A stretch of 64,000 bases of DNA from the NCBI GenBank assembly GCA_045539135.1, contig JAZQET010000061.1, forward strand, positions 1,032 to 65,031. Direction: 5' to 3'. Under the pieces are notes generated by a model. That model had not been told where the DNA came from, searched no databases, and saw only the letters and a list, made by a program, of their open reading frames with translations. The DNA is from Eubacteriales bacterium. GTDB lineage: Bacteria > Bacillota > Clostridia > Oscillospirales > QAKW01. Positions 37,602 to 49,272 of the stretch are shown in pieces. Position numbers and translations under genes: made by a program. Every line of letters starts with the position of its first letter. Position 1 is the stretch's first letter.

Positions 37602-37687
37602 CGATATTCGTGTAAAACACCAGCGAGATAACGTTCGTTGCGCTATGCGAAGACCGCGCGATATACGGCTTCGCCGTGCAAACGGGT

Positions 37688-37716
37688 TTGACAAATCTTT
37701 GAGCCCGTGATAGAAT
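37688..37716 (+). promoter_or_regulatory. Sigma-A promoter driving the cobalamin riboswitch leader
   Basis: TTGACA (37688-37693), 17 nt, then TAGAAT (37711-37716). Confidence 0.7.
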
Positions 37717-37730
37717 ACGGAGCAGAAACA

Positions 37731-38160
37731 CGCTGTCAAACAAGGAAGAGGGGTGTGAATCCCCCGCGATCCCGTCGCCGTGATGGACGATGGAGCAAGG
37801 CGTTTGACCACTGCACCGAGAACGGGTGCGGGAAGGTGCCTTAAGGTAACAAGAGCAATCCGAACCTGCCTCAAAGCGGGATATTTCGGCGCTTTTTACC
37901 CAATTTATTCTTGCAAGGCGTCAAGCCTTGCTGCACCTAAATTGAGCAAAAATCCCTCGAAATCTCCTCGCTTTGAGGTCGAAGATTTTGAAAAGTGCGC
38001 ATTTTTGATCAATCAAGGCGCAAAACGGAGCCAATACTGCCGTATTGGCGAGTATTTTAACGAAGAGTGAACGAAAATCCGCCTTTTCAAAACAGATTCA
38101 GATTGCTCTTGTTACCTTACGCTCCGCTTGAGTCCTCAGCCGAAAGACTTCTTGACAGCG
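37731..38160 (+). promoter_or_regulatory. Cobalamin (B12) riboswitch aptamer, interrupted by a 274-bp MITE
   Basis: The P1 strands are CGCTGTCAA (37731-37739) and TTGACAGCG (38152-38160). Core elements match the btuB-type consensus as I recall it: AGGAAGAGGGGTGTGAATCCCC, GACCACTGCACC..GGGTGCGGGAAGGTGCC, and a B12-box-like AGCCGAAAGACTT (38138-38150). A hairpin plus T-tract follows (about 38160-38215). Downstream genes are a DUF4430 protein and an ECF S component. Confidence 0.75.
37844..38117 (+). mobile_element. MITE copy A (274 bp, ~25-bp imperfect terminal inverted repeats, TA target-site duplication)
   Basis: Ends are AGGTAACAAGAGCAATCCGAAC and the imperfectly inverted GATTCAGATTGCTCTTGTTACCT, flanked by TA (37842-43) and TA (38118-19). 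About 80% identical to the reverse complement of 47990-48263. Confidence 0.85.
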
Positions 38161-38287
38161 GATCGGAAAGACGGTCACGATGAATGACACCGCTCGCTTT
38201 GATCCTTTTCAGGCAGAAAAAGGAAAGAAGGGGCGGCAAAAAAGTTTTTTCAGATCAGTTTCGAATAAAATATAAGGAGAAAAAAGA

Positions 38288-38683
38288 ATGCAAAAAAAGC
38301 AAAAATGGCTCATTGGCATTGGCGCGGCGGTCTTGGTGGTCGTTGCAGCGGTTGCCTTGCTTCTTTGGAAGGGTTTTTCTGCCGACCCCAATGAAGGTAG
38401 CAAAGCAATTACATTTGAGGTGGTGTTAAAGGACGGCTCGTCCACCGAGTTTGACCTTTCCACCGATAAAGAATATTTGGCGGATGCCTTGGTGGAAGAG
38501 GGCTTGGTGGAGTACGCCGCCGACGGGTTTTATACCACCATCAACGGTGTGACCGCCGACTGGAGTGTGGATCAGGGCTGGTGGTGTATTACCAAGGACG
38601 GAGAGATGACTGCGGTGGGAATGAACCAACTGGTCATTGCCGACGGTGATCACTATGAAGCGACCTACACCATCGGTTCTTAA
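38288..38683 (+). CDS. DUF4430 (transcobalamin-like) membrane-anchored protein
   Basis: 131 aa with an N-terminal TM anchor. The domain reads ITFEVVLKDGSSTEFDLSTDKEYLADALVEEGLV...GWWCITKDGEM, as in DUF4430 proteins commonly found behind B12 riboswitches. Confidence 0.75.
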   Translation: MQKKQKWLIGIGAAVLVVVAAVALLLWKGFSADPNEGSKAITFEVVLKDGSSTEFDLSTDKEYLADALVEEGLVEYAADGFYTTINGVTADWSVDQGWWCITKDGEMTAVGMNQLVIADGDHYEATYTIGS

Positions 38684-39182
38684 CCTGCGGGAGCTGGTTG
38701 CCTTGGCGGTGTTTGCCGCCTTGATGGTTGCCTTTCAGGTGGCAATGGCGCCCTTGACCAACATCGAAGTGGTGACCCTCTTGATCATTCTGGCAACGGT
38801 ACGGCTTGGATGGAAGTCCATGCTTTCCGTGGCGGTGTTTGTGGTTTTGGAGGGGTTGATCTACGGGTTTCATATCTGGTGGATCAACTATTGCTATGTC
38901 TGGCCGCTTTTGGTGGTGATGGTGATGGCCTTGCGCCGCTGGAGCCACCCCCTTTTATGGACGGTGGTGGGCGGTCTTTACGGCCTCTTCTTCGGCACCC
39001 TTTGCTCCCTGCCGTATTTTTTGACCGGCGGATGGGGCGCAGGCTTTGGCTATATTATCAGCGGCATCCCTTATGATCTGGCTCATATGATCGGGAATGT
39101 GGTTTTGATCTTCCTGCTCTATCGGCCTTTGGAAAAGGTCCTGCTGCGGGTGTTGCCGGCGCCAACCGCGCCAACGAAATAA
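38655..39182 (+). CDS. ECF transporter substrate-specific (S) component, probable cobalamin type (CbrT-like)
   Basis: About 175 aa with 5-6 TM helices. ATG 38655 overlaps the upstream gene. Function is inferred from riboswitch context only. Confidence 0.65.
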   Translation: MKRPTPSVLNLRELVALAVFAALMVAFQVAMAPLTNIEVVTLLIILATVRLGWKSMLSVAVFVVLEGLIYGFHIWWINYCYVWPLLVVMVMALRRWSHPLLWTVVGGLYGLFFGTLCSLPYFLTGGWGAGFGYIISGIPYDLAHMIGNVVLIFLLYRPLEKVLLRVLPAPTAPTK

Positions 39183-39203
39183 ATTCCTTGGGGGATTTAT
39201 TTC

Positions 39204-39285
39204 ATTTCACATTCTGCCGCAGGCAGAATATTTCACAAGGCGCAAAGCGCCTTATTTCACATTTTGCGTCAGCAAAATATTTCAC
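39204..39285. repeat. Four ATTTCAC heptamers alternating with three unrelated short hairpins (24-26 bp period)
   Basis: ATTTCAC occurs at 39204, 39230, 39254 and 39279. The hairpins are ATTCTGCC-GCA-GGCAGAAT, AAGGCGC-AAA-GCGCCTT and ATTTTGC-GTCA-GCAAAAT. Confidence 0.8.
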
Positions 39286-39324
39286 TAAAAAAGAGGGATC
39301 AGCCGAAAGGCTGATCCCTCTTTT
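39286..39324. terminator. Bidirectional terminator (ECF S component / MFS gene)
   Basis: AAAAAAGAGGGATCAGCC-GAAA-GGCTGATCCCTCTTTT. The MFS stop codon lies inside the stem. Confidence 0.8.
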
Positions 39325-47964: not shown

Positions 47965-47989
47965 TCTTCTCTTTTCTCCTGTTTTTTTA

Positions 47990-48263
47990 AGGTGACAAAA
48001 GTAATCCGAACCCTGTTCTAAAAAGGCGGATTTCTGCTCACCCTTCGTTAAAATACTCGCCAATGCGGCAGCATTGGCTGCGGTTTATGCCTTGGTTGAA
48101 CAAAAATCCGCTCTTTTTAGAATCTTCGACCCCAAAGCAAGGAGATTTCGAGGGATTTTTGCTCTATCTTTTATGCAGATCGGCTGCCGCCGATCAAATA
48201 AAAATAAGTGAAAAGCACCGAAATGTCCTGCTTTGAGGCAGGTTCGGATTACTCTTGTCACCT
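47990..48263 (-). mobile_element. MITE copy B (274 bp, TA target-site duplication), inverted relative to copy A
   Basis: Ends are AGGTGACAAAAGTAATCCGAAC and GTTCGGATTACTCTTGTCACCT, flanked by TA (47988-89) and TA (48264-65). The right end abuts and overlaps the TAA stop of the Dabb gene. Confidence 0.85.
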
Positions 48264-48559
48264 TATACTTCGTAATCAAAAGAGGCACGGCTTGCCACAT
48301 TGGGGAGCACCAATCCGTTGGCGATGGCCTGATGGGCGGGGTGGGTCTGGTAAGCCTCCAGCGCCTCTTTACTCTCAAAGGCGGAATCCATCATCAGGTC
48401 CCCTGCGGAGCAAGGGAAGCCCTCGGTGAGGATGTGCATCTCCAAAAGACCGTCGATGGTGCCTAAAAGACCCTCCAGCTTTTCTTTGATCTGCGCCTTC
48501 ACTGCGTCTTTTTCGGCAAGGTCCTCTTTTAAGGACCAGATAATCATATGTTTAACCAT
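48263..48559 (-). CDS. Dabb (stress-responsive alpha/beta barrel) domain protein
   Basis: 98 aa. Starts MVKHMIIWSLKEDLAEKDAVKAQIKEKLEGL and contains HPAHQAI, the Dabb family pattern. Confidence 0.8.
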   Translation of the reverse strand: MVKHMIIWSLKEDLAEKDAVKAQIKEKLEGLLGTIDGLLEMHILTEGFPCSAGDLMMDSAFESKEALEAYQTHPAHQAIANGLVLPNVASRASFDYEV

Positions 48560-49171: not shown

Positions 49172-49272
49172 CCTCCAGCGGGATGCGAGATCTGCACGGC
49201 GGGAACCCCTTCGTTCCAAAGACAACTCCCCGTTCTTCGGACACGTGACCCGCAGGTCTCTACTCCAGAGTA
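49172..49272 (-). promoter_or_regulatory. THF (tetrahydrofolate) riboswitch
   Basis: The minus-strand RNA reads GGAGUAGAGACCUGCGGGUCACGUGUCCGAAGAACGGGGAGUUGUCUUUGGAACGAAGGGGUUCCCGCCGUGCAGAUCUCGCAUCCCGCUGGAGG. It aligns block by block with the E. siraeum THF aptamer as I recall it (GGAGAGUAG..GCG..GGGAUGUCGUC..ACGAAG..CGCGGUG..GCAUCCGCU). The SD GGAGG lies at the 3' end. Confidence 0.75.

What the first reader, a model, noticed from the sequence alone, without database searches (positions are those of the whole stretch)
37731..38160. Cobalamin riboswitch aptamer split by a 274-bp MITE insertion
The 5' part of the aptamer occupies 37731-37840: P1 strand CGCTGTCAA, then AGGAAGAGGGGTGTGAATCCCC, then GACCACTGCACC...GGGAAGGTGCC. 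It is separated from the B12-box-like AGCCGAAAGACTT and the closing P1 strand TTGACAGCG (38138-38160) by the MITE at 37844-38117. Without the element the aptamer would be about 155 nt, a normal size. The insertion falls in the peripheral variable region between the GGGAAGG element and the B12 box. The MITE's ~25-bp imperfect terminal inverted repeats could fold on themselves in the RNA. That might leave the aptamer functional with a giant extra stem, or it might have killed the regulation of the downstream DUF4430 + ECF S-component B12-uptake genes. Either outcome would be informative about riboswitch tolerance to mobile-element insertion.
Basis: partly seen in the sequence, partly recalled or inferred. 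Interest (0 to 1): 0.65.

Follow-up and report, generated by a model that had tools for sequence, protein, structure and literature searches.

The report
B12 riboswitch split by a MITE
In this gut Clostridia strain, the only vitamin-B12 riboswitch has a 274-bp mobile element inserted in its ligand-sensing fold, and other strains carry the identical riboswitch without the element, which gives a natural with/without pair for testing how much insertion a riboswitch tolerates.

Summary
Positions 37731-37843 and 38120-38160 are the two halves of one 154-nt cobalamin aptamer (RF00174). They are separated by a 274-bp palindromic MITE (37844-38117) that duplicated a TA.

- **Empty site.** Two metagenome contigs of the same species (L047, L048) carry an aptamer 100% identical to the window minus 37844-38119. 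They score 58.3 bits, against 49.5 bits for the occupied window, whose Rfam hit wrongly borrows the MITE's 5' end and the untranscribed promoter. Contigs in 8 public runs skip exactly these 276 nt. All 19 congeners tested have an uninterrupted aptamer (56-84 bits).
- **Occupied site.** The left junction is seen independently in two runs, so the insertion is real, recent and rare.
- **Insertion site.** It is a 2-nt bulge between two helices of the long P6 extension.
- **Folding.** The element folds on itself (-115 kcal/mol, z = -10.7). Predicted aptamer pair probabilities change by 0.03 or less.
- **Function.** Whether B12 control survives is untested. I put it at about 55:45 for retained, probably weakened, control.
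- **Downstream genes.** A DUF4430 protein and a CbrT-like ECF S-component.
- **A second hit.** A congener carries a 31-nt remnant of the same MITE family in another loop of the same aptamer.

The parts
37688..37716 (+). Sigma-70 promoter TTGACA-17-TAGAAT with a TG before the -10 box. The inferred transcription start is near 37723.
   Evidence: 11 of 12 matches. A TATAAT box sits at the same distance from P1 in relatives (alignment).
37731..37843 (+). 5' half of the cobalamin aptamer: P1 5' strand (37731-37738), P3 5' strand (37744-37748), P4 hairpin with the GGUG..AAUCC loop (37750-37765), P5 hairpin (37766-37778), the 5' strands of P6 and its extension, and the complete distal hairpin GCCACUG...GGGAAGG.
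37842..37843 (.). Left copy of the duplicated TA target.
   Evidence: every copy is flanked by TA. (the empty allele has a single TA).
37844..38117 (+). 274-bp non-coding palindromic MITE. Its terminal inverted repeats are 37844-37868 and 38093-38117 (17 perfect base pairs, 25 with 2 mismatches).
38118..38119 (.). Right copy of the duplicated TA target.
38120..38160 (+). 3' half of the aptamer: the 3' strands of the P6 extension (GCUCCG, GUCC, UCA), the B12 box AGCCGAAAGACUU (38138-38150), and the P3 and P1 3' strands (38148-38160).
   Evidence: UGAG(C/U)CCUCAGCCGAAAGACUU is nearly invariant in relatives.
38161..38287 (+). Expression platform, conserved across the genus. A long-range helix encloses two hairpins with invariant ACGAUG and GGCAGA. 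The RBS AAGGAG lies at 38274-38279. It is intact in this strain.
   Evidence: 17 of 19 pairs show compensatory changes. One search found no classic terminator here.
38288..38683 (+). DUF4430-family membrane-anchored protein, 131 aa.
   Evidence: PF14478, 24.1 bits. (PDB 3U7Z, E 2.8e-14).
38655..39182 (+). CbrT-like ECF S-component, 175 aa from the ATG (the ORF opens at TTG 38637).
   Evidence: PDB 6FNP_A, E 1.2e-12. 6FNP is ECF-CbrT (PMC5997447).
37696..37887 (+). Extent of the misleading contiguous RF00174 hit. It is not the real aptamer boundary.
   Evidence: It has many non-canonical pairs in P1/P2, and its 5' strand lies in the promoter.

Best explanation
**What it is (shown).** This is the genome's single cobalamin riboswitch. 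It has a Cbl-I-like architecture: a four-way junction, a long P6 extension and no P2 arm. It sits in front of a two-gene B12-uptake operon encoding a DUF4430 protein and a CbrT-like ECF S-component.

In this strain a 274-bp TA-duplicating MITE has transposed into the aptamer. It landed at the UA of a 2-nt bulge between two helices on the 3' strand of the P6 extension. The event is recent and strain-polymorphic. Conspecific strains carry the same aptamer, base for base, without the element.

**How it most likely works (inferred).**
- The element's RNA folds into its own Y-shaped hairpin, closed by a 19-bp terminal stem.
- This turns the bulge into a three-way junction and brings the two aptamer halves back together.
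- P6-extension, P3 and P1 pairing, the B12 box and the unchanged expression platform can then still form.

**Functional odds.** I put about 55% on B12-responsive control surviving, probably weakened. The 5' half must wait for 276 extra nucleotides and has a slightly more stable non-native fold available while it waits. I put about 45% on control being lost.

The confidence given here is for the structural claim: one aptamer, split by a real, recent MITE insertion.
For: **One aptamer.**
- Empty-site alleles L047 and L048 are identical to the window minus 37844-38119 and score 58.3 bits on RF00174 with the true B12 box.
- All 19 congeners have uninterrupted hits of 56-84 bits.
- The consensus structure has 22 of 41 pairs with compensatory changes, and the excised window sequence carries all 56 invariant columns.

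**Real and recent.**
- Contigs in 8 runs skip exactly 276 nt.
- Contigs in X26 and X27 span the occupied left junction.
- There are 0 differences in the 154-nt aptamer between the alleles.

**It is a MITE.**
- 13 places in the window's own genome and 27 of 30 genus genomes.
- TA at both ends of every copy, and inverted termini.

**Promoter position.** The promoter at 37688-37716 puts the transcription start just before P1.

**Folding.**
- The element alone folds at -115.1 kcal/mol, z = -10.67.
- The MFE of the full leader keeps every aptamer helix, and helix pair probabilities change by 0.03 or less with versus without the element.

**Tolerance of the site and of the element.**
- Congeners vary in length at the same internal loop; L025 and L024 have extra bases there.
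- G007 carries a 31-nt MITE-terminus remnant in the distal loop of the same aptamer and still scores 58.6 bits.
- Several copies of the element lie in the same orientation directly before an RBS and start codon, so read-through transcription of it seems tolerated.
Against: - There is no expression or ligand-binding data. The only RNA run found (X25) has thin cover of the genes and none on the leader.
- The folding evidence is equilibrium thermodynamics only. The isolated 5' half prefers a non-native fold by 2.3 kcal/mol, in which P5 is lost (probability 0.01). The insertion lengthens the time available for that trap.
- In Cbl-I riboswitches the P7-P11 extension helps form the adenosyl pocket, and small peripheral changes can alter ligand selectivity (PMC7367189).
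- The element carries a conserved hairpin followed by a weak T-run at 38030-38059, which could terminate some transcripts.
- The occupied allele is rare: it is found in this assembly plus X26/X27, against at least 12 samples with an uninterrupted aptamer. It has not spread.
- The right junction was not found in any other run.
Confidence: 0.9

Rival explanations
1. The insertion has killed the switch. The aptamer no longer folds or binds B12 in the time available, so the operon is either expressed constitutively (the default ligand-free state of an OFF switch) or reduced by premature termination or cleavage inside the element.
For: - The 5' half has a more stable alternative fold (-39.0 against -36.7 kcal/mol) that removes P5, and 276 extra nucleotides of time in which to reach it.
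- The P6 extension matters for adenosylcobalamin recognition in Cbl-I switches (PMC7367189).
- There is a terminator-like hairpin inside the element.
- The first 44 nt of the MITE mimic a 3' half well enough for Infernal to choose them, so they could act as a decoy.
- The occupied allele is rare.
Against: - Predicted equilibrium pairing of every aptamer helix is unchanged.
- The insertion is at a bulge whose length varies among congeners.
- The expression platform and both genes are intact.
- The element is tolerated in other 5' leaders in the same orientation.
Confidence: 0.45
2. The contiguous Rfam hit at 37696-37887 is the real, complete aptamer, and the element merely abuts or overlaps its 3' end.
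For: The hit covers the full model (1-189) at 49.5 bits, above the gathering score of 31.5.
Against: - Its P1 5' strand lies in the promoter spacer and -10 box, upstream of the inferred transcription start.
- Many P1/P2 pairs are non-canonical.
- Its 3' half is repeat sequence found at 13 places in the genome.
- The empty alleles and 19 congeners use AGCCGAAAGACUU and the perfect 9-bp CGCUGUCAA/UUGACAGCG P1, and they score higher.
Confidence: 0.02
3. The insertion is an assembly artefact in which a repeat was spliced into the contig.
For: - The genome is a 105-contig metagenome-assembled genome, and several contigs break inside this repeat.
- Most public samples show the empty site.
- The right junction was not seen elsewhere.
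Against: - Contigs from X26 (37798-37948) and X27 (37823-37960) cross the left junction.
- The junctions show an exact TA duplication.
- Flank and element share only 5 nt (CCTTA), which is too short to mislead an assembler.
Confidence: 0.03

Closest known systems
Cobalamin riboswitch, Rfam RF00174, Cbl-I architecture (e.g. T. tengcongensis, PDB 4GMA)
   Same: - It has the conserved core motifs: GGUG..AAUCC in L4, GCCACUG, GGGAAGG and the B12 box AGCCnnnAGAC.
- It has the P3-P6 junction and a long P6 extension.
- It sits upstream of B12-uptake genes.
   Different: - The aptamer is interrupted by a 274-nt mobile element in the P6 extension.
- There is no P2 arm; the Rfam model forces a P1/P2 onto promoter DNA throughout this genus.
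- The expression platform is a multi-branch structure with no obvious terminator.
BOX element between the two T-box riboswitches of the pneumococcal trp leader (Croucher et al. 2011, PMC3049150)
   Same: A small non-autonomous repeat element lies inside a riboswitch-controlled leader and is co-transcribed as a separately folding module. RNA-seq suggested that regulation still works.
   Different: In that case the repeat lies between two complete aptamers. Here it lies inside a single aptamer, between strands that must pair.
TA-targeting bacterial MITEs, such as IS630/Tc1-mariner-derived elements and Neisseria Correia elements
   Same: - It is short and non-coding, with terminal inverted repeats and a TA duplication.
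- It has many intergenic copies, often in 5' leaders, and forms a long RNA hairpin.
   Different: No cognate transposase was found in this genome (no DDE_3 hit). Family assignment is therefore open.
ECF-CbrT vitamin B12 transporter of Lactobacillus delbrueckii (PDB 6FNP, PMC5997447)
   Same: The second gene aligns with the 182-aa membrane subunit over residues 10-160 (E 1.2e-12).
   Different: Here it is paired with a DUF4430 protein. The ECF module genes were not looked for.

Membership tests
Cobalamin riboswitch (RF00174) | Covariance-model score above the gathering threshold (31.5 bits) | tested here: met
   The occupied window scores 49.5 bits. The natural empty allele with identical aptamer sequence scores 58.3 bits.
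Cobalamin riboswitch (RF00174) | Conserved core motifs, including the B12 box | tested here: met
   GGUGUGAAUCC, GACCACUG, GGGAAGG and AGCCGAAAGACUU are all present. All 56 invariant columns of the genus alignment are kept.
Cobalamin riboswitch (RF00174) | P1 and P3-P6 pairing supported by covariation | tested here: met
   22 of 41 consensus pairs show compensatory changes across 20 sequences. Within the species, GGAGC/GCUCC corresponds to GGAA/UUCC and AAGGC/GCCUU to CAGG/CCUG in variant alleles.
Cobalamin riboswitch (RF00174) | Binds a cobalamin and switches gene expression | not testable with these tools
   No binding or expression data are available. RNA run X25 is uninformative.
MITE | Terminal inverted repeats | tested here: met
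   17 perfect base pairs, 25 with 2 mismatches. With the flanking TA, the RNA stem is 19 bp.
MITE | Target-site duplication, shown by comparing occupied and empty sites | tested here: met
   The empty allele reads GCCTTACGC and the occupied allele reads GCCTTA[element]TACGC. TA flanks every copy.
MITE | Multiple dispersed copies and insertion polymorphism | tested here: met
   13 places in the window's own genome and 27 of 30 genus genomes. This site is polymorphic.
MITE | Derived from, and mobilised by, an autonomous IS with matching ends | tested here: inconclusive
   All inverted-terminus pairs in the genome are about 275 bp or 59 bp apart. There is no DDE_3 (IS630-type) transposase in this 89%-complete genome.
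ECF-type B12 uptake (CbrT) | S-component homologous to CbrT | tested here: met
   PDB 6FNP_A, E 1.2e-12, query residues 10-160 aligned to residues 8-166 of the chain.
ECF-type B12 uptake (CbrT) | EcfA/A'/T energising module present in the genome | not tested
   Not searched.

The most novel reading that the evidence does not exclude
The MITE-bearing aptamer is a working B12 sensor. A Cbl-I riboswitch would then tolerate a 274-nt autonomous hairpin domain growing out of its P6 extension.

MITE insertion followed by internal deletion, as in the 31-nt terminus-derived remnant in the distal loop of the same aptamer in congener G007, would then be a natural route by which the peripheral stems of riboswitches lengthen and diversify.
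Probability: 0.4. Interest if true: 0.62.

Novelty: new member of a known kind. Interest (0 to 1): 0.48.

Why it matters
Riboswitch aptamers are usually treated as compact, contiguous folds that act while they are being transcribed. Here nature supplies two alleles of one switch that are identical except for a 276-nt insertion inside the aptamer. A relative also keeps a small remnant of the same element in another loop.

Cloning the two leaders in front of a reporter, or probing the two RNAs with adenosylcobalamin, would directly measure two things:
- how much extra sequence a peripheral arm tolerates;
- how much co-transcriptional timing matters.

The result is also a practical warning. The standard Rfam hit in the occupied allele looks complete, but it is built partly from transposon and promoter sequence.

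Tried and rejected
- **Empty-junction pattern scan.** An exact 24-nt pattern of the empty junction found nothing in JGI metagenome contigs. The empty site was then found through read laying and through proteins of the same 90% cluster.
- **Exact look-ups.** Both start variants of the CbrT-like protein found no contig. The exact DUF4430 protein gave only an 817-nt contig cut inside the aptamer.
- **Restricted cmscan.** Limiting cmscan to the transcribed part (37722-38215) did not make Infernal bridge the element. It again took the MITE's 5' end as a false 3' half (48.3 bits). The tools cannot score a custom excised sequence, so natural empty alleles were used instead.
- **RNA evidence.** One metatranscriptome (X25) gave three short contigs on the genes and none on the leader.
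- **Right junction.** No other run holds it.
- **Parent transposase.** No DDE_3 hit in the window's own genome.
- **Promoter inside the element.** None was found by the consensus scan.
- **General link between this MITE and riboswitches.** Rejected. 20 other MITE-bearing loci gave no riboswitch, only one adjacent SRP RNA.
- **Literature.** Five full-text searches found no report of a MITE or IS inside a riboswitch aptamer.

Full report
**1. Observation.**
CGCTGTCAA at 37731-37739 is followed by the GGUG..AAUCC hairpin, a short GCGAUCCCGUCGC hairpin, GACCACUG and GGGAAGG, up to 37843. A 274-bp element follows at 37844-38117. After it come CGCTCCGCTTGAGTCCTCAGCCGAAAGACTT and TTGACAGCG, ending at 38160. 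Joining 37731-37843 to 38120-38160 gives 154 nt.

**2. The element is a MITE.**
- BLAST finds 13 places in the window's own 1.79-Mb, 105-contig genome. About six are full length at 82-94% identity, and three sit at contig ends.
- All copies begin TA|AGGTRACAAGAG and end CTTGTYACCT|TA.
- The family is present in 27 of 30 genomes of the genus, often with more than 20 matches per genome.
- The RNA or DNA strand folds into a Y-shaped hairpin closed by the termini, at -115.1 kcal/mol. Shuffles average -63.9 kcal/mol, giving z = -10.67.
- No IS630-type DDE_3 transposase and no long element with these ends was found in this genome. The autonomous parent is therefore unknown.

**3. The flanks are one aptamer; the empty site exists.**
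- **(a) Congeners.** Nineteen same-genus loci (L015-L033) found with the joined flanks all give an uninterrupted, full-length RF00174 hit of 56.5-84.5 bits. They carry a nearly invariant UGAGCCnUCAGCCGAAAGACUU that equals window 38128-38150. RNAalifold on these plus the excised window sequence gives 41 pairs, 22 of them with compensatory changes.
- **(b) Public runs, same species.** Contigs in eight public runs (X1, X2, X3, X6, X7, X8, X32, X33) skip exactly 276 nt from 37838 to 38115, with 5 nt that fit either side. X4 and X13 carry uninterrupted variants of the arm.
- **(c) Conspecific contigs.** Proteins of the same 90% cluster as the DUF4430 product led to contigs L047, L048, L050, L052 and L053. 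L047 and L048 show MatE, a 378-nt leader and DUF4430 in the same order as the window. Their aptamer is identical to the window minus 37844-38119, with GCCTTACGC at the junction. RF00174 scores them at 58.3 bits.
- **(d) Variant alleles.** L034, L050 and L053 replace GGAGC/GCUCC with GGAA/UUCC and AAGGC/GCCUU with CAGG/CCUG. These are compensatory changes in exactly the two helices that flank the insertion point.

**4. Why the database hit is misleading.**
In the occupied window cmscan reports a complete aptamer at 37696-37887. When restricted to 37722-38215 it still chooses the same 3' end. That alignment takes MITE bases 37844-37887 as the B12 box and P1 3' strand. It takes 37704-37716 as the P1 5' strand. 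Those 5' bases lie inside a near-consensus promoter, TTGACA-17-TAGAAT at 37688-37716, and so upstream of the likely start. Relatives have a TATAAT box at the same distance from P1. This genus' switch has no P2 arm, and the model's P1/P2 is forced onto upstream DNA in all of them.

**5. The insertion is real, recent and rare.**
- Contigs from X26 (37798-37948) and X27 (37823-37960) cross the left junction, with three differences inside the element. The occupied allele is therefore not an artefact of this assembly.
- No other run holds the right junction.
- The aptamer shows zero substitutions between the occupied and empty alleles, and the rest of the leader shows two. The event is therefore young.
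- At least 12 samples show an uninterrupted aptamer, against this assembly plus X26/X27.

**6. Where the insertion lies.**
The target UA is the last pair and first bulged base between the helix AAGGC/GCCUU and the helix UGGAGC/GCUCCG, on the 3' strand of the long arm that extends P6. In the Rfam consensus this is the internal loop after the 8-bp distal helix. Congeners vary in length at this loop; L025 and L024 carry extra bases there. According to PMC7367189, cobalamin switches have a P3-P6 four-way junction and an L5-L13 kissing loop. Cbl-I switches also have a long P7-P11 extension of P6 that helps shape the adenosyl pocket, and small peripheral changes can shift ligand selectivity. The site is therefore peripheral, but not necessarily innocuous.

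**7. Predicted consequences (inference).**
- At equilibrium the insertion is neutral. The MFE of the 430-nt aptamer and of the whole leader keeps every aptamer helix and folds the element as a separate domain. Mean pair probabilities of all eleven helices change by 0.03 or less.
- Kinetically there is a cost. The isolated 5' half prefers a non-native fold by 2.3 kcal/mol (-39.0 against -36.7). In that fold P5 is lost (probability 0.01). In prefix folding the native fold becomes the MFE only once 38136-38160 has been made.
- The element also has a conserved 8-bp hairpin followed by a weak T-run at 38030-38059.
- Against strong polarity, the same element lies in the same orientation immediately before an RBS and start codon at several other loci. 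These include a second copy in this window and the orthologous leader of congener G007. No promoter-like site lies inside it.
- The expression platform (38161-38287) is unchanged and conserved, with 17 of 19 covarying pairs. Its mode of action, termination or RBS access, could not be settled.
- My odds are about 55% for retained but probably weakened B12 control and about 45% for lost control. Within the latter, I think constitutive expression is more likely than silencing.

**8. Context.**
- RF00174 hits the genome only once, so this is its only recognised B12-controlled locus.
- The first gene matches DUF4430 (24.1 bits against a 23.8 cut-off) and PDB 3U7Z (E 2.8e-14).
- The second gene matches the 182-aa membrane chain of 6FNP (E 1.2e-12), which is ECF-CbrT, the B12 ECF transporter (PMC5997447).

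**9. A second hit in the same aptamer.**
In congener G007 (L026) the orthologous leader has a full MITE at L026 1650-1921, between the expression platform and the RBS. It also has a 31-nt insert, TAGGGTAACAAGAGTCTATTTTTGTTGTCCC, in the terminal loop of the distal P6-extension hairpin. Its closest relative L016 lacks this insert. The first 14 nt of the insert equal the MITE terminus. TAGGGTRACAAGAG occurs at 8 places in G007, against 0 for the reversed control. The whole insert is unique. That aptamer still scores 58.6 bits. This looks like a decayed insertion kept as a stem extension. Twenty other MITE-bearing loci show no riboswitch, so there is no general targeting of riboswitches.

**10. 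Novelty.**
Both components are of known kinds. Five full-text searches found no case of a MITE or IS inside an aptamer. The nearest is a BOX element between two T boxes in the pneumococcal trp leader, where regulation seemed to persist (PMC3049150). I class this finding as a new member of known kinds, with an unusual and experimentally useful arrangement.

Noticed in passing
L026 1450-1480 and 1650-1921 (congener G007, contig C14): The orthologous B12 leader of another species carries two MITE-derived sequences. One is a full MITE between the expression platform and the RBS. The other is a unique 31-nt insert in the distal loop of the aptamer's P6 extension, beginning with the MITE terminus TAGGGTAACAAGAG. 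The aptamer still scores 58.6 bits.
   Followed up: partly
window 47988-48265 (- strand): This is a second MITE copy (82% identical), about 900 nt downstream of the THF riboswitch (49174-49269, -) on the same strand. The TA plus the element's first A forms the TAA stop of ORF 48263-48559. The other end abuts the RBS and ATG (47963) of the next gene, so the element lies inside an apparent operon.
   Followed up: partly
own genome C9:13705-13983, C92:54840-55068, C2:39724-39782, C61:49019-49296; L026: At five or more loci the element's 'right' end lies directly before an RBS and start codon, always in the same orientation. C2:39724-39782 is a 59-bp mini version made of the two termini. This suggests a positional and orientation bias of this MITE family for 5' leaders.
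   Followed up: no
window 37602-37672: There is a 64-69-nt presence/absence polymorphism between the MatE terminator and the riboswitch promoter, bounded by direct repeats GCGATAT. It is present in the window, L050, L052, L053 and X2, and absent in L047, L048, X1 and X3.
   Followed up: no
window 38161-38287 and alignment A2: The expression platform is conserved across the genus as a long-range helix enclosing two hairpins with invariant ACGAUG and GGCAGA loop motifs (17 of 19 pairs covary). The scan found no classic intrinsic terminator. The regulatory mechanism and the L13 kissing-loop partner are unresolved.
   Followed up: partly
window 39199-39287 (- strand): There is an Rfam Gut-1 RNA hit (52.8 bits, gathering score 50) in the convergent 3' region after the CbrT-like gene.
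   Followed up: no
L042 1338-1438: In congener G006 a MITE copy lies about 60 nt from the small SRP RNA gene (RF00169, 65.4 bits).
   Followed up: no
window 37696-37730 and all L015-L033 hits: Throughout this genus the RF00174 model aligns its P1/P2 positions to promoter DNA with many non-canonical pairs. The covariation-supported P1 starts only about 8 nt after the inferred transcription start, and there is no P2 arm.
   Followed up: partly
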